64,000 bases of DNA from a virus (IMGVR_UViG_3300044974_000806); one strand, 5' to 3'; numbered from the stretch's first letter, positions 8,876 to 48,691 are shown. Notes: generated by a model not told the origin, from the sequence alone. Translations and numbers: made by a program.

Positions 8876-9224
8876 ACTGATAATTAATTCAAACAATTTA
8901 ATTGTACCGTAGATAGATGAACCCAACATATACAAACCTAATGCAATAGTAGCATATTGTAATTTACTTGTTGGTTTTTGGTTGCATTTTTGACATTCAG
9001 ACATAATTATAAGTATGTTAAGTGAACAAATTCGTAGAATTCTTTATATGTACCTTGATGAGAAGGAACAACAAAAGTATAAGAAACCTCGCAAATATAG
9101 TAAATCGTATTGTACATCTACACCATGTAAAGAAATGGGGTTCACACAGAAAGCATCTTGTAGACCTTATAAAAATTGTTATAAGTAGATTTGCCTTTCT
9201 TGTTTTTTTTACTATATTTGTCCT

Positions 9225-11428: not shown

Positions 11429-11791
11429 TTGTTTAACTTTCAAAAATTTAACATATGAGTGTTGATGTTGAAATATACATGAATGGCATTCTCAAATTCT
11501 TCAGAGAAAATCCAAATGATTTATTGAATCTGGTTCCAAAAACCAAAGAGGAAGAGTTTTATAAAAAAATCAAAGAAGTTGCTTTAAAAAATTATGAGAA
11601 GGGTGAGGAAGTTAGCCTTACCCAACCTCAACTTATTGATGTTTGTGTTGAAATTAATAAGCCTAAAGCCAAAAAAATTGAAAAATCTGTTAATCATCTT
11701 TTTGTTCAGACAAAATTTGGTGAATATTGTTTGAATTAAATTTGGTAGTCTGAAACGTTTAGATTATCTTTGTATTCTAAATCAATCAGAT

Positions 11792-16102: not shown

Positions 16103-18502
16103 ATGGCTAAAAATATTGTAATCACCCCAAGAGTATCTGTACCCAACATATCATTTGACAATGGAGGGGAAATTACGTTGACGGTGACCCAAGGTGCAAG
16201 GATAAATTTTAATACTTCTTCTCAATCCAATCTACTTTACATTGATATTTCTAACAAAATAATTTCTGTTGGAAATACTCTTAACGTTAAAGATAATTTA
16301 ACCGTTGGCGGAACTCAAGTTATTAATGGAACTGCAAATTGGGTTGGTCCAACAACTGGTATTTTGGGGAGTCAAGGTGCTAAAGGAGGCACAGGGGCTC
16401 AAGGTAGTGTAGGTGAAATAGGGTCTACAGGTGCACAAGGTACTCAAGGACCTAATAATACAACTCAAGGAGCGCAAGGAGCCACAGGAAATGTTCAAGG
16501 TGCTCAAGGACCTCAAGGCGATATTGGAGCGACAGGCCCCCAAGGACCAACAGGTTCACAAGGTAGTTTGGGACCAACAGGTGCACAAGGTAATACAGGC
16601 GCACAAGGTAATACAGGAGCCCAAGGTCATACAGGAGCTCAAGGAGCAACAGGACCAACAGGACCAACAGGAACTCAAGGTAACACAGGACATCCAGGAG
16701 CTCAAGGAGCAACAGGACCAACAGGACCAACAGGAACTCAAGGTAACACAGGACATCCAGGAGCTCAAGGAGCAACAGGACCAACAGGAAACACAGGAGC
16801 CACAGGACCAACAGGTTCACAAGGAGGAATAGGACCAACAGGACCAACAGGTGCACAAGGTAATACAGGTTCAACAGGACATCCTGGTGCTCAAGGAAAC
16901 ACAGGTCCAACAGGGCCAACAGGTAACACAGGACCAACAGGTAATACAGGCGCTCAGGGTTCAACAGGGCCAACGGGACCAACAGGTTCACAAGGAGCAA
17001 CAGGTCACCCTGGAGCTCAAGGAGCCACTGGTACTACAGGACCAACAGGTAATACAGGACCAACAGGTAATACAGGAGCCCAAGGAACAACAGGTCCGAC
17101 AGGACCAACAGGTTCACAAGGAGCAACAGGTCACCCTGGAGCTCAAGGAGCCACTGGTACGACAGGACCAATAGGTAATACAGGACCAACAGGTAATATA
17201 GGTGCTCAGGGTTCAACAGGACCAAAGGGACCACAAGGTTCACAAGGAGCAACAGGTCACCCTGGTGCACAAGGTTCAGGAGGTGCAACGGGAGCACAAG
17301 GTTCAACAGGAGGACAAGGAGCCCAAGGTTCTCAAGGAGGTGTGGGACCAACGGGACCACAAGGTTCACAAGGAGCAACAGGTCACCCTGGTGCACAAGG
17401 TTCAGGAGGTGCAACGGGAGCACAAGGTTCAACAGGAGGACAAGGAGCCCAAGGTTCTCAAGGAGGTGTGGGACCAACAGGAGCCCAAGGTAATCCTGGT
17501 GCAACAGGACACCCTGGTGCACAAGGTGCTACGGGTGTAACAGGAGCACAAGGTTCAACAGGAGGACAAGGAGCCCAAGGTTCTCAAGGAGGTGTGGGAC
17601 CAACAGGAGCCCAAGGTAATCCTGGTGCAACAGGACACCCTGGTGCACAAGGTTCAGGAGGTGCAACGGGTAATCAGGGTGCTCAAGGAGTTGGTGCATA
17701 TCAAGGAGCACAAGGGGCTCCTGGTGTGAGTGCTGGAGGACAAGGAGCCCAAGGAGCTCAAGGTACAAATGGAACTCCTGGAGGACAGGGTGCACAAGGT
17801 GCGATAGGTTTTACACCAGGTACCTCAGGACCACAAGGAGCCCAGGGTGCTGGAGGACCAGGTGGAGGTCCAGGACCAACAGGTGCTCAAGGTAACGTTG
17901 GACCAACGGCAACAACTTGTTATTCCCATTCAGGATGTGCTGGTTCTAGTGTTCTCCAAGCTTGTAATTGCGTTCAAACCGCATTTTATTATCAACAAAC
18001 TTCGTTTAACGACTTCCAAGGAATAAAATATAATAATTTAACCAATTGTCAAAACTCTACTTGTGATTGGAATGGTACTTATGATTATGTTGGTAGTGCT
18101 GCGGCTGCTTATGGTGCTTTAGGTTATAGTTGTGGTAGTGGTGGTACAGGATATCTTTGTGGTGGTTCACCATATTCAGATGAGAGACTAAAAAATGGAA
18201 TTGAGACTCTTAAAAATGCTTTAGAAAACATAATGAAGATTGAGGCGGTTGAATATGATTGGAATGAAAATTTAAGAGAATACGAATATTTCAAAACCCA
18301 ACAAAAATTACATACAATAGGACTTATTGCCCAAAACGTTAGATTATATTATCCTGAAGCGGTAAGAATTAATAATGACGGGTATTATTCAATTGATTAT
18401 ACAAAATTAAATGCTGTGTTGGTAGAAGGTATCAAAGAGCAATCAATATTTATCGAAAGTATCGATAAAGAATTAGATTATATAGAAACAAAACTTAGTT
18501 AA
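16103..18502 (+). CDS. Collagen-like fibre protein 1 with a Cys-rich module and a C-terminal Peptidase_S74 intramolecular-chaperone domain. Putative tail fibre.
   Basis: About 500 aa of uninterrupted Gly-X-Y triplets (GAQG, GPTG, GHPGAQG), then a Cys-rich segment, then [31 protein letters not shown], which is the S74 auto-cleaving chaperone signature. The N-terminus MAKNIVITP is shared with the next two genes. Confidence 0.8.
16380..17900. repeat. Tandem 9-nt-periodic GXY-coding DNA repeat array with nested longer repeats.
   Basis: Blocks of 54-120 nt recur, for example the ...CAAGGAGCAACAGGTCACCCTGG... blocks. They also generate long spurious antisense ORFs. Confidence 0.85.
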
Positions 18503-20694
18503 TGGCTAATATTATAATATATCCCCAAGGTAATGTAGGAAATACGAATCCACAAGTTGTTTTCAATGACGGTTCTACCACATTGCAATTCAATGTTGGA
18601 GTATCGACATTAACTCTTTCATCTAGTACTGTATCTTCAGGTGTTCAATTAGGACCACAAAATGTTGTTGTTTCAGGCGCTAGTGCGCAAGGTACAAGTA
18701 TCTCAGAAGGAAACGTATACGTTGGTGGGGTTAAAATGATTAACTATGACGCAACTTGGGTTGGTCCATCATCAGGAATTGCGGGGGCACAAGGACCAAC
18801 AGGTGCACAAGGTAATACAGGTGCACAAGGTAACAAAGGAGGACAGGGTTCTCAAGGAGCAACAGGAAGTTTAGGAGCGGATGGAGCTCAAGGGCCAATT
18901 GGACCTCAAGGGTCTCAAGGAAATGTTGGTTTCCAAGGAACACAAGGTTTCCAAGGACCAACAGGACCAACAGGTGCTCAAGGTGCTAATACAGGGGCGC
19001 AAGGAAATACAGGAGCACAAGGAGGACAAGGGGCTCAAGGTACCCAAGGTGCGAACACGGGAGCTCAAGGAAACACAGGTCCAACAGGACCAACAGGTGC
19101 TCAAGGGACACAAGGAGCCAATACAGGTGCTCAAGGAAACACAGGTCCAACAGGACCAACAGGTGCTCAAGGGACACAAGGAGCCAATACAGGTGCTCAA
19201 GGACCAACAGGACCACAAGGGGCTCAAGGACCTACTGGCCCGACAGGGGCACAAGGTCCAACTGGACCACAAGGAGCTCAAGGTTCGACAGGTGCTCAAG
19301 GTACACAAGGTGCTAATACAGGAGCCCAAGGTGCTTTAGGTTCTCAAGGAGCACAAGGACCAACAGGACCACAAGGAGCACAAGGTACAACAGGACCACA
19401 AGGTACAACAGGACCACAAGGTGCTCAAGGTACACAAGGGGCTAATACAGGTGCCCAAGGTGCTTTAGGTTCTCAAGGAGCACAAGGTCCAACAGGACCA
19501 CAAGGTGCTCAAGGGACAGGAGGACCACAAGGTACAACAGGACCACAAGGTGCTCAAGGGTCTCAAGGAGGAAGTACAGGAGCCCAAGGTGCTTTAGGTT
19601 CTCAAGGAGCACAAGGTCCAACAGGACCACAAGGTGCTCAAGGGACAGGAGGACCACAAGGGCCAACAGGTATATCAGGAGCTCAAGGTACACAAGGAGC
19701 CAATACAGGAGGACAAGGAAATGTTGGTAATACAGGAGCTCAAGGTGCTGTAGGGTTCCAAGGAGCTGGAGGTCCAGGAGGACCACAAGGTACAACAGGA
19801 CCACAAGGTGCTCAAGGGTCTCAAGGAGGAAGTACAGGAGGACAAGGAAATGTTGGTAATACAGGGGCTCAAGGCGCTGTAGGGTTCCAAGGAGCTGGAG
19901 GTCCAGGAGGACCACAAGGTTCTCAAGGACCACAAGGAGCCCAAGGTTCTCAAGGTGGAAATACAGGTGCTCAAGGACCTTTAGGAAATGTTGGTGCTCA
20001 AGGTGCTGTAGGGTTCCAAGGAGCTGGAGGTCCAGGAGGACCACAAGGTTCTCAAGGACCACAAGGAGCCCAAGGTTCTCAAGGTGGAAGTACAGGTGCT
20101 CAAGGCGCTCAAGGTTCTCAAGGAGACGGTGGAGGTACTTTATCTGGACCACAAGGAGCTCAAGGAGCCCAAGGTGCGGTAGGTACACCTGGTGCAACAG
20201 GAGCCCAAGGTGCGGCAGGTAACAATGGTACAACAGGAGCCCAAGGTGCTCAAGGACCCTCAGGTGGAATACCAACAGGTAATACAGGAGCACAAGGTGG
20301 ACCAGGACCAACAGGACCACAAGGTGCTCAAGGTTCACAAGGACCACCATCAGATAGAAGATTGAAAGATAATATCAAGAAACTTGAAAATGTTATTGAT
20401 ACTGCAAAAAAAATACAAGGGGTTTCTTTTGAATGGGATGAAACTCATGAAAAAATATCAAAACATGAGTATATCCACTTCAAGTCTGCGTTTTCTGGAA
20501 CTGCAATTGGATTCATTGCTCAAGAGATAGAAAAAGTTGTCCCTGATGTTGTATTTACAAGTGACGATGGATTCAAATCGGTTGAATACGGACAATTAGT
20601 TAGTATTGGTGTTGGAGCGGTTCAAGAACAACAAACAAGGATAGAATCTATTTATAAAAGAATAAACAAACTTAAAGAAGTAATAGGTGGCTGA
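18502..20694 (+). CDS. Collagen-like fibre protein 2 with a C-terminal Peptidase_S74 chaperone domain.
   Basis: Paralogous N-terminus MANIIIYP, a long GXY array, and [31 protein letters not shown]. The start overlaps the upstream stop (TAATG). Confidence 0.8.
18780..20340. repeat. Tandem GXY-coding DNA repeat array.
   Basis: Repeated GCTCAAGG / CAAGGTGCTAATACAGG units and near-identical blocks of about 120 nt. Confidence 0.85.
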
Positions 20695-22771
20695 GAATAT
20701 AATTATAACGCCAGGTAGTGGTACAATCGATTTTTACGATTCAGGTAATACTTTAACGACATTAATTGTTGAATCAGGTAGCTTAAAATTTAAAAGAGCT
20801 GGGGGAACATACCTTGCTTTGGATAATACATATCCAAACTTTAAAGTTACTCTTGGTAATTTATATGTAGGAAACGCACTTCAAAATAACTTTGGAAATG
20901 TAATTAACTCTACAGGTTGGTTGGGAAATCCATTACCAACAGGTCCACAAGGTGCTCAAGGTTCACAAGGTGCTCAAGGTTCACAAGGACCCACAGGACC
21001 ACAAGGAGCCCAAGGTAATCAAGGGGCTCAAGGACCAACAGGGGCTCAAGGACCAGTTGGACCAACAGGTGCTCAAGGGCCACAAGGAGCTTTAGGTCCT
21101 CAAGGACCAACAGGTCCTCAAGGAGCACAGGGAGGACAAGGTGCACAGGGAAACCAAGGAGCACAGGGAAATACAGGTTCACAAGGAACTACAGGAGGAC
21201 AAGGAGCCCAAGGAACACAAGGACCGACAGGACCTCAAGGAGCCCAAGGAACTACAGGAGGACAAGGAGCCCAAGGAACACAAGGACCGACAGGACCACA
21301 AGGTGCTCAAGGAACAGGAGGTACCCAAGGAGCAACAGGACCAGTGGGTCCGCAAGGGTCACAAGGACCAACAGGACCACAAGGTGCTCAAGGAACAGTT
21401 GGACCATCACCAACAGGTGCTCAAGGGTCTCAGGGACCTGCAGGAGGACAAGGAGCTCAAGGTCCAAAAGGACCACAAGGTTCACAAGGACCTGTAGGAC
21501 CTCAAGGTTCACAAGGTGCGGTTGGAGCATCACCTGTAGGACCACAAGGGGCCCAAGGAACTGCAGGAGGACAAGGAGCTCAAGGTCCAAAAGGGCCACA
21601 AGGTTCACAAGGACCTGTAGGACCTCAAGGTTCCCAAGGAGCAGTCGGAGCATCACCTGTAGGACCACAAGGAGCCCAAGGACCTGGTGGAGTACAAGGA
21701 GCTCAAGGTCCAAAAGGACCGCAAGGTTCACAAGGACCAACAGGACCTCAAGGTTCCCAAGGAGCAGTCGGAGCATCACCTGTAGGACCACAAGGAGCCC
21801 AAGGACCTGGTGGAGGGCAAGGAGCCCAAGGTTCACAAGGACCTCAAGGTGCTCAAGGTCCAAAAGGACCACAAGGTGCCCAAGGTAATACGGGAGCATC
21901 ACCTGTAGGACCACAAGGAGCCCAAGGACCTGGTGGAGGACAAGGAGCCCAAGGTTCACAAGGACCTCAAGGTGCTCAAGGTCCAAAAGGACCACAAGGA
22001 GCCCAAGGTAATACAGGAGGTTCACCAGGAGGAGCCCAAGGTGCTCAAGGTGGTGGTGGAGGCCAAGGAGCTCCAGGACCTATAGGACCTCAAGGTGCTC
22101 AAGGACCAAAAGGACCACAAGGAGCCCAAGGTAATACAGGAGGTTCACCAGGAGGAGCCCAAGGTGCTCAAGGTGGTGGTGGAGGCCAAGGAGCCCAAGG
22201 AGCCCAAGGAGCAAAGGGTGCTCAAGGGGCTAAAGCGGTACCAGGAGCTCAAGGAGCTCAAGGAGTTCAACCGACATATGCTCAAGGTGCACAAGGTGCT
22301 CAAGGTATTAACAGAGGGGCTGGACCAACAGGTGCTCAAGGAGGAACAGGACCTGACAACCCTGGACCACAAGGTGCTCAAGGACCAGGAGGAGGTCCAG
22401 GACCAACAGGTTCACAAGGAGCAACAGGGTCGCCAGGACCTTCAGATGTTAGATTAAAGAAAAACATTAAAAAAATTGAAAGTCCGTTATCTAAGTTATT
22501 AAAATTAAGAGGTGTTTCATTCATTTGGAATTCCAAAAATCCAAACTTAGAGAATACAAAAGATATTGGTTTTGTGGCACAAGAAATTGCTCACGTTATA
22601 CCTGAATTAGTATTTAAAGAAAATAACGGAAAAGATTTATATAAAGTAAAATATGGTGATATAATAGCACTTTGTTTAGAAGCTGTTAAAGAACATGAAG
22701 AAATGATAAATTCTAAAGAAGAACGATTAAGTAAATTAGAATATAAGGCAAAAGAAAAGGGGTTAATCTAA
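20687..22771 (+). CDS. Collagen-like fibre protein 3 with a C-terminal Peptidase_S74 chaperone domain.
   Basis: GTG start giving MAENIIITP, a GXY array rich in GPQGAQG and GSPGGAQG, and [30 protein letters not shown]. It overlaps the upstream gene by 8 nt. Confidence 0.75.
20935..22440. repeat. Tandem GXY-coding DNA repeat array.
   Basis: Repeated GGACCACAAGG / GTTGGAGCATCACCTGTAGG blocks. Confidence 0.85.
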
Positions 22772-33723: not shown

Positions 33724-35142
33724 GTGAGAAAAATAATTAACGAAAGCGGATTAAGAGATATTTCAGCCTTAAGTAAAAGATACCCTAAGGCTGAAATATA
33801 TTTTCACCAAGACTTAGATGGTGTTACAACTGCGATTGCAATGAAGAAATACCTTGAGGACAATGGTATTGATGTTGTCGGTGCACACGTAATTCAATAT
33901 GGGGACAAAGAATTTTCAGTTAAGAAAAACGATGCTCAAGGAGATACAATGCCAGTTCTTGTTGATTTTGCTCACGGTAAACCAATGTTTGTTATTCATA
34001 CAGACCATCACGATAGACAAGCTGGAGCTGAGGATACAAAATCAACATCATTTAGACCTTCTCGTTCAAATGTTGAAACCATATCTCAAGTTGTTTCGCC
34101 AAAAGACTTATTTCCCTCATCAGACATTTTACTGATTAGCACTGTCGATTCAGCAGATTTTGCCAAATACAATATCACACCTACTGAGGTTGTGAACTAT
34201 CTTTATAGGGTTGATAAAGAAAAACCACTACAAAAGAATAAGATGTTGCTTGGATTGGTAATAAATAAATTATTATTAGCTTTCAAAAACAAACCAGGAT
34301 TTTTAGAAGGATTAGTTATGGATTCAGAGCCATCACTTTTATCCATCTTGAATAATATTAAATCTTGGATGAAAAACACAAACGCGGCATCACCAGAAGA
34401 ACTACAAAAAAATGCAGAAGAATACGCAAAACAAATGAAGGACTATCCGACCGTCTCGGACAACATTATATTCCAGTACGGTGGAGGTAGCATGTTTAAG
34501 CCTGGGTCTTATGACAGGTATACCCCATTCAGAAATAATCCTGAAGCAGACTTTCTTATTATGGCATGGCCGATGGGTCTCGTTCAAGCGTCTTGTAACC
34601 CTTTTAAGAAAGAAAGAGAACTTAAAGGTGTTAATCTCGGGGAAATAGCTCAAGAAGTTTTATCCAAGTGGGAAGACCAATTAAAAACAAAAACAATTCC
34701 ACTCTCAACTATTAAATGGGTTAGCGAGACAAGTGTTGGACCTGAGAGTATTGGTTTTACATTTAAAGATTTTGATGCTCTTTATGGTGGAAAAATTATG
34801 TTCATGGAAAATGGAGAACAAATTTTAAATCACATTAAAGATATGATGGAAACACCATTTAAAGATTTAAGTGAGGAACACAGACAAATGTTAGATAAGA
34901 TTGGTATCAATGCTTGGGACTTAATTCAGTCAAACTCAGGGGGACACAAATGTATTACTAACATATCAGGACTTAATTACTTAGGAAGAAGTACGAGACC
35001 GCCTCAAGGTCAATACAGATACAATCCTGATAAAGATGATTCACCATCTGTTAAGTTTACCAAAATGATTGCAACACAATTCCAAAAAGTTTTGAAAGAA
35101 AAAATCGAACAATCAAAACAATCTGTTGAAACAACTAAATAA
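33724..35142 (+). CDS. DHH-superfamily phosphoesterase-like protein.
   Basis: GTG start. YFHQDLDGVTTAIAM resembles DHH motif I/II and VIHTDHHD resembles the DHH motif. The fit is partial. Confidence 0.45.
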   Translation: MRKIINESGLRDISALSKRYPKAEIYFHQDLDGVTTAIAMKKYLEDNGIDVVGAHVIQYGDKEFSVKKNDAQGDTMPVLVDFAHGKPMFVIHTDHHDRQAGAEDTKSTSFRPSRSNVETISQVVSPKDLFPSSDILLISTVDSADFAKYNITPTEVVNYLYRVDKEKPLQKNKMLLGLVINKLLLAFKNKPGFLEGLVMDSEPSLLSILNNIKSWMKNTNAASPEELQKNAEEYAKQMKDYPTVSDNIIFQYGGGSMFKPGSYDRYTPFRNNPEADFLIMAWPMGLVQASCNPFKKERELKGVNLGEIAQEVLSKWEDQLKTKTIPLSTIKWVSETSVGPESIGFTFKDFDALYGGKIMFMENGEQILNHIKDMMETPFKDLSEEHRQMLDKIGINAWDLIQSNSGGHKCITNISGLNYLGRSTRPPQGQYRYNPDKDDSPSVKFTKMIATQFQKVLKEKIEQSKQSVETTK

Positions 35143-35153
35143 GTTTTTTATAT

Positions 35154-35714
35154 TTGTGTATGGCAAAGAAAATATACACAAAAACAGGAGACCAAGGTCT
35201 AACTTCATTATTGGGGGGTACTAAAGTACCAAAGAACGATTGGAGAATTGAGGCATATGGTACGGTAGATGAATTGAATTCATTTATTGGTCTTTTAGGG
35301 GACAAATTACAAAGTAACAACTCTTCATTTTCATTCAGTTTTTTAGAGTTAGAAAAAATTCAAAACAATTTATTCAAAATTGGTTCTGTTTTGTCTTATG
35401 ACATGACCGCTGATTTAAAAATTGAACTACCAAATGTAACCGAAGCGGACGTTAAGAATTTGGAAGACTGGATGGATACAATGGAGTTAACATTACAGCC
35501 TTTGAAAAACTTTATCATACCAGGTGGACACGAGGCGGTTTCATTGGCTCATGTGTGTAGAACAGTATCAAGAAGAGCGGAAAGAAATACCGTACAAGCA
35601 ATTCAATATCCAATCATTATGAAATACATCAACAGATTGAGTGATTACTTCTTCATGTTGAGTAGATATATTGCTTCAGAGGTTGGAGTAGAGGAAAAAA
35701 TTTGGAAAGGTTAA
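35154..35714 (+). CDS. ATP:cob(I)alamin adenosyltransferase, PduO-type (Cob_adeno_trans family).
   Basis: The N-terminus KIYTKTGDQGLTSLLGGTKVPKNDWRIEAYGTVDELNSFIGLL closely follows the PduO/MMAB consensus IYT+TGD.G.TSL..G.RV.K...R.EAYG.VDELNS.IG. Confidence 0.7.
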   Translation: MCMAKKIYTKTGDQGLTSLLGGTKVPKNDWRIEAYGTVDELNSFIGLLGDKLQSNNSSFSFSFLELEKIQNNLFKIGSVLSYDMTADLKIELPNVTEADVKNLEDWMDTMELTLQPLKNFIIPGGHEAVSLAHVCRTVSRRAERNTVQAIQYPIIMKYINRLSDYFFMLSRYIASEVGVEEKIWKG

Positions 35715-36079
35715 TCCAAGATATATTCAACTGAATCACCAGCCTGAATGTTTTTGATTTCACAGGTACCACCTTCGACTTCTAATACTATATTACCATT
35801 ACCACAATAAGAAGGACAGTCAAACTCGTCATCACAAGGAGGGCAACTATGATGAATATTCACAATCACGTTATTTTTAATAACAATGATGTCTAATGGT
35901 ATTAAACAATTTTTCATCCAAAAACATTGTTTCTTACCTCCCATCAAAAACAATAAACCATTAAAGGTTTCATCGAAAGTTTTCCCCATCATTCCAATTG
36001 ATTGGGATTTTTCATCGATAAGTGTTTTGACTTTAAATATATTTTTATTAATTTTGACTTTCATACTAAATAAATACAA
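35711..36079 (-). CDS. DUF192 (COG1430) family protein.
   Basis: GMMGKT...GLLFL...CFWMKNCLIPLDIIVIKNN resembles the DUF192 core GLM.R...GMLF.F....FWMKNT.IPLD. Confidence 0.45.
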   Translation of the reverse strand: MYLFSMKVKINKNIFKVKTLIDEKSQSIGMMGKTFDETFNGLLFLMGGKKQCFWMKNCLIPLDIIVIKNNVIVNIHHSCPPCDDEFDCPSYCGNGNIVLEVEGGTCEIKNIQAGDSVEYILD

Positions 36080-36625: not shown

Positions 36626-36700
36626 AGAACTTTTGGGGGAAATGGAGATATTTATATGTTCATGTCCGAAAGGACGAACACCCCAAAATAAGTTTCATAA
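36626..36700 (+). ncRNA. Candidate small structured RNA (promoter-proximal hairpin transcript).
   Basis: TTTTGGGGG ... CCCCAAAA long-range stem enclosing a GTCC-gaaa-GGAC hairpin. It lies directly downstream of a promoter motif and has no ORF. Confidence 0.25.
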
Positions 36701-36723
36701 AAAAAAGATTTGATTGTTTGAAA

Positions 36724-36731
36724 AAACATTC
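36724..36731 (+). promoter_or_regulatory. Bacteroidetes-type -7 promoter element TACCTTTG.
   Basis: It is part of a roughly 40 nt element TTTGATTGTTT...AAAACATTCTTACCTTTGTGAAAC that is duplicated at 37150-37195. Confidence 0.45.
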
Positions 36732-36738
36732 TTACCTT

Positions 36739-36795
36739 TGTGAAACGAAAATCCCATAAGAAAGTTTTCGAGAGAATTCAAACCTTGTGGGATTT
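36739..36795 (+). ncRNA. Candidate small RNA or terminator hairpin.
   Basis: AAATCCCA ... TGGGATTTTTT stem followed by a U-run, about 10 nt downstream of a promoter motif. Confidence 0.25.
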
Positions 36796-36828
36796 TTTAT
36801 CTGAAGTTCTTTAATATAAAAATATATC

Positions 36829-36899
36829 GCGAGATAGTAGCAGCGGTAGCTCGCAAGGCTCATAACCTTGAGGTCGGGGGTTCGATTCCCTCTCTCGCA
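36829..36899 (+). tRNA. tRNA with anticodon CAT (Met, or Ile if lysidinylated).
   Basis: Acceptor stem GCGAGA/TCTCGC, anticodon stem-loop CAAGG-CTCATAA-CCTTG and T-arm GGGGGTTCGATTCCCTC. No 3-prime CCA is encoded. Confidence 0.75.
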
Positions 36900-36986
36900 A
36901 CTAAGAATAGGTTGACTACGTTAGTCGTAAAATTACGGTTCCCTATTTTTTTTTACAAAGAGTTTGACAAACTGAAAATGTTTTTC

Positions 36987-36994
36987 TATCTTTG
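36987..36994 (+). promoter_or_regulatory. Bacteroidetes-type -7 promoter element TATCTTTG.
   Basis: TAnnTTTG match with an upstream TTTGACAAACTG. Confidence 0.4.
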
Positions 36995-37172
36995 TAGTCC
37001 AATCGGGTAAAACTGATTGGTGTCTTTGACAAACAGACGAATTAGCCTGTCCTATAAAGTGTAGGAGGTCAACAAGATAGTTGGATGATACTATCAAGGA
37101 AGAATGAATTCGTTTAAATCATCAGTCAAAAAAAAAGTTTCTAAAAAGTTTGATTGTTTCCCAAAACATTCT

Positions 37173-37180
37173 TACCTTTG
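37173..37180 (+). promoter_or_regulatory. Bacteroidetes-type -7 promoter element TACCTTTG (duplicate of the 36724 element).
   Basis: Same roughly 40 nt promoter element as at 36706-36745. Confidence 0.45.
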
Positions 37181-37186
37181 TGAAAC

Positions 37187-37292
37187 AAATGAAGGAGACA
37201 GGTTGTAAAGATTCCTGTTGTTGATTATGAGACCTTTGGTTGATTATGAGACTTACTCAGGTTGTAAAGATTCCTTTCTCCTTCATTTTTAA
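37187..37292 (+). ncRNA. Candidate small RNA forming a long imperfect hairpin with internal direct repeats and a U-run.
   Basis: Outer inverted repeat AAATGAAGGAGA / TCTCCTTCATTT encloses two copies each of CAGGTTGTAAAGATTCCT and TTGATTATGAGAC, followed by TTTTT. It starts about 7 nt after a promoter motif. Confidence 0.3.
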
Positions 37293-37319
37293 AAGTACGT
37301 TCTTTGAATTAAAATATTG

Positions 37320-38165
37320 GCGGTCTATAGTCGTTAAATAAACCATGAAAGTGGTATAAAGTGACTTAGTTTGGTTGAACTAAGTTGCGGCTTCCGAAAG
37401 GGAGCTCGAGTAGACAAGCGAGATATCGTTAGACCTTTAGTACCGAGGGTGACACTGTAGGGAAAATGGTTTGACGACCAAGCGATGTGGGTCGTTTGGT
37501 TGAGGTGGGAACACCAATAAGAATAACTCGTAGAACTGTTGCAAGACATATGGTCATCCAACCATACGATTGCGGAGTTCAATATCAGGGTGGTCTTAAA
37601 ATCGAAAGATAAGACCTCGTACAGGTGGTGCTGTTGTAGTCCTTAACTTGACTCTACCAAGAGTTCTGTTATGAAGATGACCCAAAATATCGAGGCAGGG
37701 ATGTCTCAGAGAGTAGTTTAGTATTCTGTTGTTCAAAAGACGACGGAGCTGGCGACGGGCCACTACTTTCTTAATCCACAAACCACTTACTTTGTTAATT
37801 TTGGTTTAACAAAACTATAAATCAGATAAAGGAAAAGTGCTCGTCAGTTCTGGATGACAGGTCACTACATAGTCGTGAGATGTTCACGGCCATGAAGGGT
37901 CCCAAGCCCGACATGATTTTCACCAAAGTTCTCTAATCTCGCAAGGATTAATTGGGGTGGCAACCTCGAAGAGTGATGAGTAATGAGAGAGTGATTCAGA
38001 ACTTAAGGATTGGTTAATCTAATTGACCGTGACTGAGAGTTACTACTCAAAAGGTAGTGGAAATCGGAGGAAATAATAATCTCCCGTAAAGATTCTCAAA
38101 TTAAGGTGTATTCTCAGCCTGAATGCCAAATTGACCCTGACTATTTCCATAGTTGGGGTTTTTTG
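37320..38165 (+). ncRNA. Large GC-rich structured non-coding RNA candidate of about 850 nt. Possibly a GOLLD- or ROOL-like phage ncRNA.
   Basis: About 50% GC against about 33% in the surrounding DNA. No ORF exceeds 82 aa on either strand. There are many local stems (for example GACGACC...GGTCGTT and CTTCC-gaaa-GGGAG). It ends in GGGGTTTTTT and is adjacent to a tRNA in a phage, which is the typical context of GOLLD and ROOL RNAs. Confidence 0.4.
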
Positions 38166-38178
38166 TTATTATTAATTT

Positions 38179-39096
38179 ATGAATGTAATTATGGTAGCTG
38201 AGGACATCAATAAAGATGGCTCATTCAAACAGACAAAGGGGGAAATCATGTGTACGGTTTCCAATCTTGCATTCATAAAACATTATTATCCTGACTTTCA
38301 CACAATACTTTTTGTAGATAAATTTACCAGACCATATTATGAATCGTTCGGTATTACCGAACTGTTCGATGAGGTTAATGATATCATGCTGAACGAACAT
38401 GTTGATATCGATAAAAATGTGTTTTGGGCGGCGGGTAAACTAATGGCTCAAAGAATAACACCAGGACCAACATTAACTATGGATTTGGATTTTTGGGTTC
38501 GAGCTGACATATCAATGTTTGGAATTTTTGATTCAGATATTTCTTGTCTTTGGGTTGAAGAAATAAATGAAAAGTATTACCATAGACATGAGGATGCATT
38601 AAAAAACTCAAACTTAAAAATTGAATGTGATTGGGACCAATATGGAATAAATGTTTCGTTTCTTTATTTAAAAGATGAAGAATTTAAAAATACATATTGT
38701 GATTTATCAATAGAATACATGAAATCAATGTACGGTAAAATACCAAACAATCTTTCATTTGAAGATAAAACAAAATACATTTTATTTGCGGAACAATATC
38801 TTTTGAATCAAATTGCCAAAAAATATGATAAAAAAGTTAAAGTTCTTGTTGATGATTTTTATGACATTACCAATTTGAAACATGTTGAATCCATTGGTGT
38901 TCATATGAAAACTTGTCCAAAATACATTTATCATATGGGTAACCACAAACACGATTACAGAGCAAAGAATAGTTTTGCCCTTGAAGGAATAGAGATATTT
39001 TATAAAACAACCACATCGGTAATAACCGATGATAGGTTTATTAGAGTAATAAATAACATTTATAACAAATCAGAATATGAAGGGTGTTTTTGTTAA
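38179..39096 (+). CDS. Hypothetical protein, paralog A. Possible GT-A-like glycosyltransferase with a DxD motif.
   Basis: A hydrophobic strand followed by DLD (LTMDLDFWV). It shares FWAAGK and MDLDF blocks with the next gene. Confidence 0.45.
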   Translation: MNVIMVAEDINKDGSFKQTKGEIMCTVSNLAFIKHYYPDFHTILFVDKFTRPYYESFGITELFDEVNDIMLNEHVDIDKNVFWAAGKLMAQRITPGPTLTMDLDFWVRADISMFGIFDSDISCLWVEEINEKYYHRHEDALKNSNLKIECDWDQYGINVSFLYLKDEEFKNTYCDLSIEYMKSMYGKIPNNLSFEDKTKYILFAEQYLLNQIAKKYDKKVKVLVDDFYDITNLKHVESIGVHMKTCPKYIYHMGNHKHDYRAKNSFALEGIEIFYKTTTSVITDDRFIRVINNIYNKSEYEGCFC

Positions 39097-40027
39097 TTGG
39101 ACAAAACCATACGAAGAAAGAAAACGTTTGAGGGGGCACGCCTTCAAAATACACAGAGAACAGTTATCTGAGGAATATACAACAACAGATGAAGAGTTGT
39201 TATTCACAATATTATCTGTTGGATACTGGAAAAAATTTAACGGTCCTACCAAACTTTATACGGATAAAAAAGGTTTGGCTTACTACGCCAAGAATAACAT
39301 GTTGGACTTATGGGATGAAATTGATACTCATACCCTGGAGAACTATAAAGACATTGACCCAGCTCAGTTTTGGACATCAGGTAAATCGTATTGTATAGGA
39401 AAAGAACAAGTGCCATTTTGTTTTATGGATTTAGATTTTATGGTTATGGAGAAATTACCTCAATGGGTTTTTGAGTCTGAAGTAACCATACCATACTGGG
39501 AAATACCAAGAGGATATTATTACCCTAATGAGGACCAATACAAAGAAATAAAACATTGGCAACCCCCATCTGACTATTCATATAAGATGATGATTCCAAA
39601 CACATCTTTTTTATACATTGGGAGTGACAAAGTCCAATCCGAATACCTCAAAGACCATCTCGAGGCGGTTGACACCAAAAATGAAATACCTGAATGGTTT
39701 TGGTTAGTTACTGACCAAGGTTTATTTGGACAAGTTCTTAGGAGGTTCAATGTCAAAACTAATACTCTTACCGATAAAGTATTTTTGTCTGACCACGAAG
39801 GTTATGAAGGTAAAGTCGGTGAAGCAACTGGATTTTACTATTTGACCAACGCGGATTATTCCAAAGACAACCTTAAATGGTGGCACGTATGGACAAGGAA
39901 AGTTTTATACAATCAAGACGAAAATGTTAGAGTTTCTGACTGCAAAGAGTTCTACCAACGAATTATGGATGAACTACCTAAGTACAAACACATACTAAAT
40001 AACCCTCGTTTGGTGAGGTATAGATAA
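39077..40027 (+). CDS. Hypothetical protein, paralog B of 38179..39096.
   Basis: FWTSGK and FMDLDFMV align with FWAAGK and TMDLDFWV of the upstream gene. This looks like a tandem duplication. Confidence 0.45.
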   Translation: MKGVFVNWTKPYEERKRLRGHAFKIHREQLSEEYTTTDEELLFTILSVGYWKKFNGPTKLYTDKKGLAYYAKNNMLDLWDEIDTHTLENYKDIDPAQFWTSGKSYCIGKEQVPFCFMDLDFMVMEKLPQWVFESEVTIPYWEIPRGYYYPNEDQYKEIKHWQPPSDYSYKMMIPNTSFLYIGSDKVQSEYLKDHLEAVDTKNEIPEWFWLVTDQGLFGQVLRRFNVKTNTLTDKVFLSDHEGYEGKVGEATGFYYLTNADYSKDNLKWWHVWTRKVLYNQDENVRVSDCKEFYQRIMDELPKYKHILNNPRLVRYR

Positions 40028-40052
40028 ATTTGGTCAGGTCAAAAAAAGGGCG

Positions 40053-40060
40053 TATCTTTG
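40053..40060 (+). promoter_or_regulatory. Bacteroidetes-type -7 promoter element TATCTTTG.
   Basis: It lies 23 nt upstream of the SPFH gene start. Confidence 0.45.
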
Positions 40061-40082
40061 TGGTGTACCAAACCTAAAATAT

Positions 40083-40622
40083 ATGTTTGATAAGTTAATT
40101 GACCTTATTGTTACGTTCATTAATGACATCCTTCCGTGGAAAATTGTTGACCAATGGGAAGAAGGTGTTCACCTCAGTACAGGTAAATTCAAAAGGGTTG
40201 TAAAACCTGGATTGAATTTCAAAGTACCGTTTTTTGACCAAATTATTACTACACCTGTTATTACCCAAACGGTAAACTTGAAACCACAAACAGTTACATC
40301 TTTTGACGATAAATCAATTGTGTTAACCAGTATTGTTAGGTATCATATTCATGACGTTGAAAAGTTTTTGTTAGGTGTAATGCATGCGAATGACGCACTC
40401 GTTGACACAACTCAAGGAGTTATCCGAGACATAGTTGAAAACACTATGTGGGAAGAGTTGGCTGATTTAGGGTCGATAGTGAAACCTGAAGTTAATGAAC
40501 AAGTATCTAAGTGGGGAATTACTGTAGAACAGATTAGTTTTCCTGACCTTGGAGAAATAAAGACATATCGTATTATGTCTGATGGAGGTAAAGACAACGT
40601 ATTACCAATAAATGGGGACTAA
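40083..40622 (+). CDS. SPFH / Band-7 domain protein.
   Basis: VDQWEEGVHLSTGKFKRVVKPGLNFKVPFFDQIITTPVITQTVNL...VRYHIHDVEKF follows the SPFH pattern V.E.E.GV...GK....L.PGLHF.IPF.D.V. Confidence 0.6.
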   Translation: MFDKLIDLIVTFINDILPWKIVDQWEEGVHLSTGKFKRVVKPGLNFKVPFFDQIITTPVITQTVNLKPQTVTSFDDKSIVLTSIVRYHIHDVEKFLLGVMHANDALVDTTQGVIRDIVENTMWEELADLGSIVKPEVNEQVSKWGITVEQISFPDLGEIKTYRIMSDGGKDNVLPINGD

Positions 40623-40632
40623 TAGTCCTCAT

Positions 40633-41790
40633 TTATTTTTTCCAAGAGTTTCTATCATAATCCCCAAGTTCAAATACTTGGGCATAATTGTAATAAACCA
40701 TGTCTGCAATATTTTGATTATATAATGACCTCCAATCAAAATTTGTATAATCAGAAGAATTTTTTTTAATTAAACAATCTTTTTCCAATTCTCCAGACTT
40801 ATAATACTCTGTATGTCTAACATGAGGAATCTTTAAATAATCATCTAACATAGACTCAACCCTAATGATGTAATCTGGTTTTCTAATTGTGTGGTCATAA
40901 CATGGAAAACGTTGAACATCGTGAATTTCTTCATATAAATAAGAGTATAAAAATTGTTCAAATTGTTCAGATGTCCATTGTTCTTTATCTGTAGATGCCT
41001 TGAAATAAGACACTATCATGTTATATGGGTTCCTTAATGTTGTTATAAAAGATAATTTTTCGTGCCCATAACAGAAAATACAATGATGATGATTAGGGTT
41101 TTCCCTTTGATAAGGTTTCAAAAAACCTCCCTCTTGTTTGTAAAGTTCAAATCCCAATTTTGGTAGTATGAATGACGCTGAAGTTGAGGCGGTTTTTGGA
41201 GGTGTCCACGCGAATATTTTTTGAGTTAAATTCGCTAAAACTAAATTTTCTTTTGGGTATTGTATCTTTTCTAAAGACACCCAATTTACTAAAGAATGAC
41301 GAACCCCCTCTGTAATTGGGGTCACCCTATGTAGTATATCTGAAAAAAATATATGTAAATTACCAACTCCCCTTTCAAATTTAATTTCATTTCCGTTTAC
41401 ATCTTTAAATTCTAAATCACCACCTTCGTATTCATTGTTTAATTGTATAACAATTGAACAATACCTATTTTTATTTTTATTATTATCAGAATCAATATGC
41501 CAACCATAATATTCTCCGACGCCATATTGTGTAAGTTGATATCTACTTAATCCTGTTAACGTATTATCTTTTATTTTTATGTTTTGATTTAAAGTATTTT
41601 TTAATCTATTATCGATTGAATCAATAGTGTCTATAAATGCAACAGAAGATTTTCTCAAATTGTTATCTAATTTACCACCATCAATTAACGCTGGTTCCAA
41701 TTTTAACTTTGACAAGTATGTGTCCAATATTTTTTTACATTCATCTTCTGATAAGAAATTTTTTATTGTAATTGGTTTGCGGTCCTCCAT
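40633..41790 (-). CDS. Bifunctional-looking protein with an N-terminal P4H-like 2OG-Fe(II) oxygenase domain fused to a C-terminal sulfotransferase domain.
   Basis: N-terminal half: FLSEDECKKILDTY, HIDSD (HxD), RYCSIVIQLNNEYEGGDLEF and LHRVTPITEGVRHSLVNW (distal His and RxS). C-terminal half: PPKTASTSASF (5-prime PSB-like PKTGTTS motif) and LRNPYNMIVSYF (3-prime PB-like RNPxDRxxS motif). Confidence 0.6.
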   Translation of the reverse strand: MEDRKPITIKNFLSEDECKKILDTYLSKLKLEPALIDGGKLDNNLRKSSVAFIDTIDSIDNRLKNTLNQNIKIKDNTLTGLSRYQLTQYGVGEYYGWHIDSDNNKNKNRYCSIVIQLNNEYEGGDLEFKDVNGNEIKFERGVGNLHIFFSDILHRVTPITEGVRHSLVNWVSLEKIQYPKENLVLANLTQKIFAWTPPKTASTSASFILPKLGFELYKQEGGFLKPYQRENPNHHHCIFCYGHEKLSFITTLRNPYNMIVSYFKASTDKEQWTSEQFEQFLYSYLYEEIHDVQRFPCYDHTIRKPDYIIRVESMLDDYLKIPHVRHTEYYKSGELEKDCLIKKNSSDYTNFDWRSLYNQNIADMVYYNYAQVFELGDYDRNSWKK

Positions 41791-46635: not shown

Positions 46636-46660
46636 AAAAAAAGTCAAAAAAAGTTTGAAA

Positions 46661-46684
46661 GATAGGGAGAAATCCCTATCTTTG
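46661..46684 (+). promoter_or_regulatory. Perfect 8 bp palindrome GATAGGGA-gaaa-TCCCTATC overlapping a -7 promoter element TATCTTTG.
   Basis: GATAGGGAGAAATCCCTATCTTTG. It could be an operator or terminator that overlaps the promoter of the 46702 gene. Confidence 0.4.
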
Positions 46685-48383: not shown

Positions 48384-48691
48384 GGAACCCATTTAAGACG
48401 TGGTCCAAACAAGAGGCTCATTTCACTTCGTGGTTACTTAAAGACGTATTTTGGTGTTTAAAACTACCCTTATTTGCAACTTTAATGGTTATACCAACAA
48501 CATTACTTACACTATACATTCTATTCAAAGAACAGGACAACAGAGATACAAATTTAATACTTTCAAGTTGGGTATTCATGAACATATTTTGGATGTTACA
48601 TGAACTACAGAATTTTCCTTATTGGCCTGTACAGGTATGTATGATTCTCGGAGGACTCGCAGTTATTAATTCTGTAACAAGAAACAAATAG
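48374..48691 (+). CDS. Small multi-pass membrane protein.
   Basis: Three hydrophobic segments. Confidence 0.35.
   Translation: MGIRNPFKTWSKQEAHFTSWLLKDVFWCLKLPLFATLMVIPTTLLTLYILFKEQDNRDTNLILSSWVFMNIFWMLHELQNFPYWPVQVCMILGGLAVINSVTRNK

What the first reader, a model, noticed from the sequence alone, without database searches (positions are those of the whole stretch)
37320..38165. Stretch of about 850 nt that is GC-rich and ORF-free next to a tRNA: candidate giant structured ncRNA (GOLLD/ROOL-like)
Between the tRNA(CAT) and the next CDS lies roughly 850 nt whose GC content is about 50%, against about 33% for the window. No credible ORF exists on either strand. The only tracked ORFs here are two minus-strand ORFs of 61-82 aa with odd composition. 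The region has abundant local stem-loops (GACGACCaagcgatgtgGGTCGTT, CTTCCgaaaGGGAG, CGGAGGaaataataatCTCCCG) and ends in GGGGTTTTTT. Large ornate ncRNAs such as GOLLD (about 800 nt) and ROOL (about 580 nt) are characteristically encoded by phages next to tRNA genes and have no known function. Its length and context fit that class. It could equally be a new large RNA class.
Basis: partly seen in the sequence, partly recalled or inferred. Interest (0 to 1): 0.78.

Follow-up and report, generated by a model that had tools for sequence, protein, structure and literature searches.

The report
GOLLD giant RNA in a phage

Summary
Window 37319-38120 (+) is a full-length GOLLD RNA gene. The 3' half (37709-38120) matches Rfam RF02032 end to end at 335 bits (threshold 150). 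The 5' half (37319-37708), which Rfam does not model, aligns with the 5' domain of GOLLD env-38, the RNA solved by cryo-EM as a 14-subunit cage. I collected 111 full-length relatives from IMG/VR and two 630-640 kb phage genomes. On 66 non-redundant 5' domains, 105 consensus pairs are 97% paired and 84 show compensatory changes. The window forms 101 of the 105. Residues equivalent to all ten published inter-subunit bridges map to conserved positions; the B7 pairing covaries perfectly in 69 sequences. A strong terminator (38133-38166) ends the gene. The host DNA is a phage, probably infecting Bacteroidota.

A possibly new side observation: a boxA-like motif (GTTCTTTRAA) sits in the leader of GOLLD, tRNA and tmRNA-like genes across the family. 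It lies downstream of host-type promoters, which suggests rRNA-style antitermination.

Verdict: a new member of a known family. Its function remains unknown.

The parts
36709..36740 (+). Bacteroidota-type promoter-like site (TTTG-N20-TACCTTTG) upstream of tRNA-Met
   Evidence: Pattern TTTG-N19-21-TAnnTTTG occurs 15 times in the window against 2.4 expected, and 0 of 100 shuffles reach 15. It is nearly identical to the site at 37149-37180. Function is inferred.
36747..36797 (+). Leader hairpin between the promoter-like site and the box in front of tRNA-Met
   Evidence: Fold energy -19 kcal/mol, z = -2.9. Its role is inferred (boxB-like position).
36806..36815 (+). boxA-like box GTTCTTTAAT, 22 nt before the tRNA-Met 5' end
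   Evidence: The same box precedes tRNAs in related loci: 47 copies lie <=40 nt upstream of a tRNA.
36828..36901 (+). tRNA-Met (CAT), with a C1xA72 mismatch at the top of the acceptor stem
   Evidence: ARAGORN and Rfam tRNA at 52.6 bits, with the non-canonical first pair marked.
37149..37180 (+). Bacteroidota-type promoter-like site (TTTG-N20-TACCTTTG), the candidate promoter of the GOLLD transcript
   Evidence: In 41 of 99 related loci such a site lies within 250 nt upstream of the GOLLD-proximal box on the same strand, against 2.7% of background windows. The transcription start near 37186-37189 is inferred.
37187..37288 (+). Leader hairpin: 16-nt inverted repeat enclosing direct repeats CAGGTTGTAAAGATTCCT x2 and GTTGATTATGAGAC x2
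   Evidence: -29.8 kcal/mol, z = -2.9. The inner GTTGATTATGAGACCTTYGGGTTGATTATGAGAC element recurs in the GOLLD 5' leaders of L191, L221, L190, L057, L156 and L199.
37299..37311 (+). boxA-like box GTTCTTTGAATTA, 20-22 nt before the GOLLD core
   Evidence: It is present within 150 nt upstream of GOLLD in 102 of 111 loci and is strand-specific (217 against 42 copies, about 20 expected).
37319..37708 (+). GOLLD 5' domain, equivalent to env-38 residues 1-420 (the cap of the cage)
   Evidence: Aligned with env-38 and with huge-phage copies. On 66 sequences, 105 consensus pairs are 97% paired, 84 carry compensatory changes, and the covariation score is 0.61 against 0.24 shuffled and about 0.10 slid. 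The window forms 101 of the 105 pairs.
37709..38120 (+). GOLLD 3' domain (the Rfam RF02032 region), including the variable single-stranded linker at about 37771-37845
   Evidence: cmscan gives 335 bits against a gathering score of 150, with model positions 1-416 of 416 matched.
37831..37832 (+). J13/15 side of bridge B7, which pairs with C37902-C37903 in loop L20
   Evidence: Mapped from the env-38 pairs G546-C618 and A547-U617. The joint pair types across 69 sequences are C-G 33, G-C 27 and A-U 9, with no mismatches.
38133..38166 (+). Intrinsic terminator: 12-bp hairpin followed by a T6 run
   Evidence: z = -4.8. Relatives L074, L191, L045 and L118 carry terminator hairpins of unrelated sequence at the same position.

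Best explanation
Window 37319-38120 (+) encodes a complete GOLLD RNA of the env-38 type, carried by a tailed phage.

Shown: it has both halves of the family. These are a 5' domain of about 390 nt and a 3' domain of about 410 nt, joined through a variable single-stranded linker. Each half has its conserved helices.

Inferred by homology with the solved env-38 structure: the RNA folds on its own and copies of it assemble into a closed two-shell cage of about 14 subunits. The 5' domains would form the caps and the 3' domains the rings, held together by GNRA/A-minor contacts and kissing loops.

Inferred from sequence signals: it is transcribed from a host-type (Bacteroidota-like) promoter at 37149-37180. 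Transcription passes through a leader hairpin and a boxA-like element (37299-37311) and stops at the terminator at 38133-38166. The neighbouring tRNA-Met has the same promoter, hairpin and box layout.

My best guess for how it works: GOLLD is made as an abundant, Rho-protected stable RNA together with the phage's tRNA genes, and it acts as a self-assembling container or scaffold in the phage's takeover of translation. I give that last functional step about 25% likelihood. No experiment has established what the cage does.
For: Identity:
- Rfam GOLLD matches at 335 bits against a gathering score of 150, over the full model.
- The window aligns over its full length with env-38 and with the GOLLDs of two 630-640 kb phages.
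- 111 full-length relatives were found.
- 5'-domain covariation: 97.0% of cells are paired, against 78% in shuffles and 37-44% when partners are slid. 84 of 105 pairs carry compensatory changes, and 0 of 500 shuffles reach any measure.
- The window forms 101 of the 105 pairs.

Cage-forming elements:
- Residues of bridges B1-B10 from Kretsch et al. 2025 (PMC12286853, Supplementary Table 2) map to conserved window positions.
- B7 covaries perfectly and the window carries a compensated G-C version.
- The conserved GAAA loop L11a is present at 37603-37608.

Transcription:
- The terminator fold has z = -4.8.
- The Bacteroidota-type promoter pattern occurs 15 times against 2.4 expected.
- The box is present in 102 of 111 loci, on the GOLLD strand, downstream of such promoters in 41 of 99 loci against a 2.7% background.
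- The box resembles accepted boxA instances (PMC7665894 supplement).

tRNA link:
- 65 of 112 loci have a tRNA within 1 kb.
- All 529 tRNAs are on the GOLLD strand.
- The nearest upstream tRNA is Met in 29 of 44 cases.

Phage origin: three tail-fibre genes.
Against: - Nothing contradicts the GOLLD identity.
- Oligomerisation is inferred only. The window, like 54 of 66 family members, lacks the distal P11a extension of env-38. Published work shows that peripheral helices change stoichiometry between 10, 12 and 14 subunits (PMC12990946).
- Complementarity of the B4 kissing loops is no better than in shuffled loops (mean longest run 4.5 against 4.2).
- Promoter, boxA and transcript ends are consensus-based. 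No expression data are available.
- The boxA consensus of Bacteroidota was not verified here.
- A few boxes precede small protein genes.
- The function is unknown in the literature.
Confidence: 0.93

Rival explanations
1. The GTTCTTTRAA box is a phage-specific promoter element for RNA genes, not an RNA-level boxA. GOLLD transcription would then start just after it, at about 37315-37321. The hairpin at 37187-37288 would belong to a separate upstream unit.
For: - The box sits at a constant 20-22 nt from the mature tRNA 5' end and from the GOLLD core.
- It abuts the core in 12 loci.
- It also precedes a few small ORFs with a ribosome-binding site.
- A sigma-70-like TTTAAA-16-TAAAAT overlaps it at 37288-37315.
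- 58 of 99 loci show no strict host-type promoter within 250 nt upstream.
Against: - Sigma-70-like hits are no more frequent than in shuffles (7 against 6.6).
- The box is not a general promoter of this phage (3 copies against 1.1 expected).
- Host-type promoters are about 15-fold enriched just upstream of it, at preferred spacings.
- Its sequence matches boxA instances.
- No -35-like conservation is seen upstream of it.
Confidence: 0.3
2. The stretch is a different or new class of large structured RNA (ROOL-like, HEARO, OLE, a group I/II intron, or a novel class) rather than GOLLD.
Against: - The only Rfam match is GOLLD, at more than twice the gathering score.
- No other family matches, even at E <= 1.
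- The sequence aligns over its full length with env-38.
Confidence: 0.01
3. The stretch is a decayed protein-coding gene (pseudogene) whose GC content and conservation reflect former coding.
For: A 102-codon stop-free run exists on the minus strand.
Against: - Conservation follows base-pairing. 84 of 105 pairs carry double compensatory changes, and 97% of cells are paired against about 39% when partners are slid by 1-3 columns.
- The plus strand is the structured, terminated strand.
- 111 relatives keep the same length of 767-846 nt.
Confidence: 0.01
4. A functional alternative: the GOLLD cage does not serve translation. It could instead act as a decoy or shield against host defences, for example by soaking up nucleases or sensors, or as a condensate-forming scaffold.
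For: - The function is unknown, and reviews list encapsulation, transport and phase separation as speculations.
- The neighbouring genes here are auxiliary rather than translation genes: NUDIX, DUF192, cobalamin adenosyltransferase, SPFH and a 2OG oxygenase.
Against: - GOLLD is tightly linked to tRNA and tmRNA-like genes, always on the same strand and with a shared leader box.
- Published observations report tRNAs embedded in the GOLLD linker and ribosome pull-down (PMC12286853).
Confidence: 0.2

Closest known systems
GOLLD env-38 (marine metagenome scaffold JCVI_SCAF_1096627009515; cryo-EM 14-mer, PDB 9MEE; Kretsch et al. 2025, PMC12286853)
   Same: - It has the same two-domain architecture and about the same length (about 800 nt against 833).
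- It also lies downstream of a tRNA-Met.
- It aligns over its full length.
- Residues of all ten inter-subunit bridges are conserved or compensated.
- The L11a GAAA loop, L21a and L21b are present.
   Different: - Identity is only about 64% as measured on my imperfect transcription of env-38.
- The window lacks the 17-nt distal P11a extension and has C-GAAA-G directly on the shorter stem, as do 54 of 66 family members.
- The receptor helices of B1, B6 and B10 differ in sequence.
- Stoichiometry is untested.
Streptococcus agalactiae GOLLD and other Lactobacillales or Mycobacterium GOLLDs (12-mer, PDB 9L0R; PMC12990946)
   Same: It shares the conserved 3' domain (Rfam RF02032), its location in phage or prophage tRNA regions, and cage formation.
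   Different: - Those RNAs have a different or reduced 5' domain. Sag lacks P9, P11a-c and P21b.
- The window has the env-38-type 5' domain and keeps L21a and L21b.
- The env-38-type 5' signature is almost absent from reference bacterial genomes: 4 pattern hits, of which 2 are real and both sit on short MAG contigs.
ROOL RNA (Rfam; 8-mer cage)
   Same: It is also a large ornate phage RNA near tRNA genes that forms an RNA-only cage.
   Different: It has an unrelated sequence and secondary structure. No ROOL match is found in the window, even at E <= 1 in the region.
rRNA-operon and lambda nut antitermination leaders (boxB hairpin plus boxA), and boxA upstream of CRISPR arrays (PMC10250234, PMC7665894)
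   Same: - The order is the same: promoter, hairpin, then a G.TCTTTRA box, in front of long untranslated RNA genes.
- The box core is identical to accepted boxA instances (TGATCTTTAATAA, TTTTCTTTAACAA).
- boxA is reported upstream of non-coding arrays in Bacteroidetes.
   Different: - Here the element is in a phage, in front of GOLLD, tRNA and tmRNA-like genes.
- No binding or antitermination test was done.
- In most relatives the hairpin follows the box, as in lambda nut, rather than preceding it.

Membership tests
GOLLD RNA (Rfam RF02032) | Match to the curated covariance model of the conserved 3' domain, at or above the gathering score | tested here: met
   335 bits against 150, E = 2.6e-95, model positions 1-416 of 416, not truncated (repeated).
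GOLLD RNA (Rfam RF02032) | A large structured 5' domain upstream of the 3' domain, giving a total of about 800 nt (env-38 type, P1-P13) | tested here: met
   Window 37319-37708 aligns with env-38 residues 1-420. 105 consensus pairs are 97% paired, 84 are compensatory, and controls are far lower. The window forms 101 of the 105.
GOLLD RNA (Rfam RF02032) | Long-range pairing between loop L20 and linker J13/15, known from covariation and seen as inter-subunit bridge B7 in the cryo-EM structure | tested here: met
   G37831-C37903 and G37832-C37902. The joint pair types over 69 sequences are C-G 33, G-C 27 and A-U 9, with no mismatches.
GOLLD RNA (Rfam RF02032) | Location in phage or prophage DNA near tRNA genes, on the same strand | tested here: met
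   Tail-fibre genes are present in the window. tRNA-Met lies 419 nt upstream on the same strand. Across the family, 65 of 112 loci have a tRNA within 1 kb, and all 529 tRNAs are co-oriented.
GOLLD RNA (Rfam RF02032) | Conservation of the residues that make the inter-subunit contacts (B1-B10 of env-38) | tested here: met
   All loop-side residues are conserved: GAAA 37347-9, GGG..AC 37447-53, GGAA 37508-11, UGGU 37626-9, AA 37735-6, GC 37941-2, GCA 37960-2 and AA 38049-50. The exception is B4, where only a 2-3 bp core is conserved and complementarity is not above chance.
GOLLD RNA (Rfam RF02032) | Self-assembly into a closed homo-oligomeric cage of 10-14 subunits | not testable with these tools
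   This needs in-vitro transcription followed by mass photometry or cryo-EM. It is inferred from homology only.
GOLLD RNA (Rfam RF02032) | Expression as a discrete abundant RNA during lytic growth | not testable with these tools
   No transcriptome is available. Only a promoter-like site and a terminator support a discrete transcript.
ROOL RNA | Match to the Rfam ROOL covariance model | tested here: not met
   No match at the gathering score in the window, nor at E <= 1 in 36700-38300.
boxA antitermination element (NusB-NusE binding site) | Sequence resembling the boxA consensus (G.TCTTTAACAA-like) | tested here: met
   The family consensus is GTTCTTTgA[A/C]ATA, and the window has GTTCTTTGAATTA and GTTCTTTAATATA. 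The reference instances are from PMC7665894, Supplementary file 4. The boxA consensus of Bacteroidota itself was not obtained.
boxA antitermination element (NusB-NusE binding site) | Position in the transcribed leader, downstream of a promoter and upstream of a long untranslated RNA | tested here: inconclusive
   Host-type promoter patterns lie upstream in the window (36709-36740 and 37149-37180) and in 41 of 99 loci against a 2.7% background. The promoters are consensus matches only, and 58 loci show none under the strict pattern.
boxA antitermination element (NusB-NusE binding site) | Binding of NusB-NusE and suppression of Rho-dependent termination | not testable with these tools
   This requires biochemistry or genetics.

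The most novel reading that the evidence does not exclude
In this family of aquatic phages, GOLLD is expressed like a ribosomal RNA. It would be transcribed from host-type promoters through a leader carrying a hairpin and a boxA-like element, which recruits the host Nus antitermination complex. The same leader precedes phage tRNA and tmRNA-like genes. That would make GOLLD part of a co-regulated, Rho-protected module of stable RNAs for translation. The antitermination complex might also chaperone co-transcriptional folding and cage assembly. The window's short-P11a form, which is the majority form of the family, might build a cage of different subunit number from the solved 14-mer.
Probability: 0.4. 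Interest if true: 0.5.

Novelty: new member of a known kind. Interest (0 to 1): 0.3.

Why it matters
The element itself is ordinary in the sense that a routine Rfam scan names it. The value lies in context.

- GOLLD is one of the largest bacterial or phage RNAs with no known function, and its cage structure was solved only in 2025.
- This window provides a complete, cleanly bounded copy in a phage that probably infects Bacteroidota.
- With 111 relatives, some on contigs of 100-480 kb and in two 630-640 kb phage genomes, the env-38-type 5' domain proves to be a large covarying family that Rfam does not model.
- The copy solved by cryo-EM carries a minority P11a extension.
- GOLLD shares a boxA-like leader with tRNA and tmRNA-like genes.
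- If that shared leader is real, it gives a testable handle on how and with what GOLLD is expressed. It also ties GOLLD more firmly to the phage's stable-RNA and translation module.

Tried and rejected
- **Sigma-70 promoter scan.** It gave 7 hits against 6.6 expected and is not informative. The TTTAAA-16-TAAAAT site at 37288-37315 is therefore not relied on.
- **Box as a general phage promoter.** Rejected: only 3 copies in 64 kb against 1.1 expected. The copy at 48524 (-) lies between convergent genes and was dropped.
- **Kissing-loop bridge B4.** Loop-loop complementarity is not above shuffled loops (4.5 against 4.2), so it is not claimed.
- **env-38 sequence from the PDF supplement.** The text is lossy: 816 nt against the published 833. 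I corrected the 3' end from the primer and calibrated numbering with 140 lettered residues, of which 129 match. env-38 was kept out of the pair statistics.
- **Published GOLLD Stockholm alignment.** It covers only the 3' end, so the 5' consensus structure had to be derived here.
- **First loose DNA pattern in IMG/VR.** It returned mostly chance matches (14 of 120 were real) and was replaced by a three-block pattern.
- **Window identity.** The window is not in the INPHARED phage collection at megablast level. Only 99.8%-identical short JGI metagenome fragments were found.
- **Genome scan for prophage hosts.** It gave 4 hits, of which 2 are real and both are on short MAG contigs, so there is no reliable host.
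- **Permissive Rfam scan of the tRNA-GOLLD spacer.** Nothing credible was found.
- **Literature.** Morgado et al. 2020 (PMC7549688) is not held. boxA sequences are not spelled out in the main texts searched. No paper with functional data on GOLLD was found.

Full report
**Observation**

The stretch 37320-38165 is real and free of credible ORFs. GC is 42.2% against 34.5% for the window. About 8% of equally long windows are as GC-rich. The tRNA-Met(CAT) lies at 36828-36901, 419 nt upstream rather than adjacent. All four quoted sequence features exist at 37473-37496, 37391-37404, 38065-38086 and 38155-38164.

**Identity**

A gathering-threshold Rfam scan of the whole window returns two matches: the tRNA, and GOLLD (RF02032) at 37709-38120 on the + strand. 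The GOLLD match scores 335 bits against a gathering score of 150, with E = 2.6e-95 and all 416 model positions matched. A permissive scan (E <= 1) of 36700-38300 adds nothing credible. It finds no ROOL, HEARO, OLE or intron.

The Rfam model covers only the conserved 3' half of GOLLD. For the 5' half I took the sequence of GOLLD env-38 from Supplementary Table 4 of Kretsch et al. 2025 (PMC12286853). That paper solved the RNA as a 14-subunit D7 cage, with 5' domain 1-420 and 3' domain 421-833, and notes that it lies downstream of a Met-tRNA. The window aligns with env-38 over its full length, from GGCGG at 37319 to CAGCCU at 38120.

The PDF text of env-38 has lost 17 bases (816 against 833 nt). 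I therefore used it only as a guide and calibrated its numbering with 140 lettered residues from the paper's tables. 129 of them match under a monotonic offset.

**Relatives**

In the INPHARED phage collection, only two unannotated huge phage genomes share the RNA: LR756502.1 (642 kb) and LR745206.1 (635 kb). Homology starts at window 37319. Both carry full Rfam GOLLD matches next to tRNAs.

A three-block pattern from the 5' domain found 117 loci in IMG/VR, many on contigs of 100-480 kb. An nhmmer profile confirmed 111 full-length copies of 767-846 nt. The nearest relative (L074) is 78% identical, and env-38 about 64%.

The window itself is in neither INPHARED nor the IMG/VR loci. Short JGI metagenome contigs are 99.8% identical to 37584-40835, so the phage population has been sampled before as fragments. 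In 185,579 reference bacterial and archaeal genomes the 5' signature gave 4 hits. Only two are real GOLLDs, and both are on short MAG contigs.

**Structure of the 5' domain**

I analysed 66 copies that are less than 92% identical to one another.

- RNAalifold predicts 105 pairs in 23 helices, and 84 pairs carry double compensatory changes.
- With controls, 97.0% of cells are paired, against 78.3% in shuffles and 37-44% when partners are slid by 1-3 columns.
- The covariation score is 0.611, against 0.238 in shuffles and about 0.10 when slid.
- None of 500 shuffles reaches any measure.
- The window forms 101 of the 105 pairs.

**Cage-forming elements**

I projected the ten inter-subunit bridges listed for env-38 (Supplementary Table 2) onto the window through a 69-sequence alignment. 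The loop-side residues are conserved in 65-68 of 68 relatives and are present in the window:

| Bridge | Residues | Window position |
|---|---|---|
| B1 | GAAA | 37347-9 |
| B2 | GGG..AC | 37447-53 |
| B3 | GGAA | 37508-11 |
| B5 | UGGU, with A, C, A | 37626-9, with 37656, 37658, 37659 |
| B6 | AA | 37735-6 |
| B8 | GC | 37941-2 |
| B9 | GCA | 37960-2 |
| B10 | AA | 38049-50 |

B7, the L20 x J13/15 pairing, covaries perfectly: C-G in 33 sequences, G-C in 27 and A-U in 9, with no mismatches. The window carries G37832-C37902 where env-38 has A-U. B4 keeps only a 2-3 bp conserved core, and its complementarity is not above shuffled loops.

The window lacks the 17-nt distal P11a extension of env-38 and carries the conserved GAAA loop on a shorter stem, as do 54 of 66 family members. 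Published structures show that peripheral helices change subunit number: 10-12 for the Streptococcus agalactiae GOLLD and 14 for env-38 (PMC12990946). Cage formation is therefore a well-founded inference, but the stoichiometry is open.

**Context**

The window is phage DNA. It has three consecutive collagen-like tail-fibre genes at 16103-22771. The genes around the RNA genes, in order, are:

- an N6/N4 DNA methylase
- a DHH-family protein
- a PduO-type cobalamin adenosyltransferase
- DUF192
- NUDIX
- tRNA-Met
- GOLLD
- two DUF6734 paralogues
- an SPFH protein
- a 2OG-Fe(II) oxygenase

Across 112 loci, 65 have a tRNA within 1 kb. All 529 tRNAs are on the GOLLD strand. The nearest upstream tRNA is Met in 29 of 44 cases, and downstream tRNAs begin a median of 18 nt after GOLLD.

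**Transcript ends**

*3' end.* A 12-bp hairpin followed by U6 lies at 38133-38166 (-17.7 kcal/mol, z = -4.8). Relatives carry terminators of unrelated sequence at the same place, or run into tRNAs.

*5' side.* Sigma-70-type hits are at chance level. The Bacteroidota promoter pattern TTTG-N19-21-TAnnTTTG (the consensus is from my own knowledge) occurs 15 times against 2.4 expected, and 0 of 100 shuffles reach 15. Most copies lie just upstream of ORFs, which suggests a Bacteroidota host.

Two nearly identical copies, at 36709-36740 and 37149-37180, head the same layout twice:

1. promoter-like site
2. hairpin (36747-36797 and 37187-37288; z about -2.9 each)
3. a box (GTTCTTTAAT at 36806 and GTTCTTTGAA at 37299)
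4. the RNA gene, 20-22 nt after the start of the box

**The box**

- In 111 loci (1.03 Mb), GTTCTT[TA][GA]A[AC] occurs 217 times on the GOLLD strand and 42 times on the other, with about 20 expected per strand.
- It lies within 150 nt upstream of GOLLD in 102 loci.
- 47 of the other copies lie <=40 nt before a tRNA.
- Further copies precede tmRNA-like sequences, other RNA-like sequences and a few small ORFs.
- It is not a general promoter of this phage.
- A strict host-type promoter pattern lies within 250 nt upstream of the GOLLD-proximal box in 41 of 99 loci, against 2.7% of background windows. The spacings cluster at 26-28, 56-66 and 115-128 nt.
- Its consensus, GTTCTTTgA[A/C]ATA, resembles accepted boxA instances: TGATCTTTAATAA, TTTTCTTTAACAA and CGCTCTTTCACAA (PMC7665894, Supplementary file 4).

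Published work provides the comparison. boxA lies after a boxB hairpin in rRNA leaders and suffices to recruit the Nus antitermination complex (PMC10250234). It also protects non-coding CRISPR arrays from Rho, including in Bacteroidetes (PMC7665894).

I therefore read the box as a boxA-like leader element, with a probability of about 0.4-0.5. The rival reading, a phage-specific promoter, gets about 0.3. Neither was tested experimentally.

**Mechanism**

*Shown:* a complete GOLLD gene with both domains and conserved helices, conserved bridge residues, a terminator, and linkage to tRNA genes.

*Inferred by homology:* the RNA self-assembles into a closed two-shell cage of about 14 subunits.

*Inferred from signals:* transcription runs from 37149-37180 through the leader to 38166, giving about 980 nt, possibly followed by 5' processing.

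*Speculative:* the cage acts as a container or scaffold within the phage's translation-related stable-RNA module. No functional data exist in the literature I could search.

**Verdict**

The element is a new sequence member of a known family, so its intrinsic surprise is low. The family-wide 5'-domain alignment and the boxA-like leader shared with tRNA genes are the parts that might interest a specialist.

Noticed in passing
window 36806-36815 and 37299-37311; related loci L001-L230: A boxA-like box (GTTCTTTRAA) precedes GOLLD in 102 of 111 loci. It also precedes tRNA genes, tmRNA-like sequences and some other RNA-like sequences. It is strand-specific (217 against 42 copies, about 20 expected) and lies downstream of host-type promoter patterns.
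   Followed up: partly
window, 15 sites, e.g. 9190-9220, 11741-11772, 36026-36056, 36709-36740, 36963-36994, 37149-37180, 40029-40060, 46654-46684: The Bacteroidota-type promoter pattern TTTG-N19-21-TAnnTTTG is strongly enriched (15 against 2.4 expected, 0 of 100 shuffles). Most copies sit just upstream of ORFs, which suggests a Bacteroidota host for this phage.
   Followed up: partly
window 37187-37288: A 16-nt inverted repeat encloses two pairs of direct repeats (CAGGTTGTAAAGATTCCT x2 and GTTGATTATGAGAC x2). The inner element recurs almost verbatim in the GOLLD 5' leaders of L191, L221, L190, L057, L156 and L199. There it lies between the box and the GOLLD core, whereas here it lies upstream of the box.
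   Followed up: partly
window 36963-37148: A third promoter-like site (36963-36994) points into about 150 nt with no assigned product. That stretch holds a hairpin at 36999-37020 and a 34-aa ORF at 37104-37208 that overlaps the next promoter-like site. It could be a small RNA or a micro-ORF.
   Followed up: no
window 36828-36901: The tRNA-Met(CAT) has a C1xA72 mismatch at the top of the acceptor stem, flagged as a non-canonical pair by Rfam. This is an initiator-like feature, although the anticodon stem has only two G-C pairs.
   Followed up: no
related loci, e.g. L126, L124, L208, L171, L218 (50-75 nt upstream of the GOLLD core): In the clade closest to env-38, a conserved and apparently covarying hairpin (ACATAGTAGA-loop-TCTACATAGT) lies between the box and the GOLLD core. 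It falls outside the boundaries of the published env-38 construct and may be an unmodelled 5' element.
   Followed up: no
related loci L184, L203, L151, L188 (box followed by GGGGGTGCCTGGTTTTGACAGG...); L193, L159, L156 (box followed by ...AGTCTAGGTCCGTAGGGCTACT...); L133, L149: Boxes precede tmRNA-like 5' ends and at least two other recurring, structured-looking sequences that ARAGORN did not call as tRNAs. These may be further phage RNA genes.
   Followed up: no
window 16103-22771: There are three consecutive paralogous collagen-like tail-fibre genes of 799, 730 and 694 aa. This is the most GC-rich part of the window, reaching 57%.
   Followed up: no
window 33724-35142 and 35154-35714: A DHH-family gene is about 79% identical at the DNA level in several GOLLD loci (L051, L166, L012, L191, L192), so the neighbourhood is syntenic. 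Next to it the phage carries a PduO-type cobalamin adenosyltransferase (Pfam E = 2.5e-55).
   Followed up: no
window 38179-39096 and 39077-40027: Two adjacent, overlapping DUF6734 paralogues lie immediately downstream of GOLLD. The same pair, followed by SPFH and a 2OG oxygenase, is found on JGI metagenome contigs.
   Followed up: partly
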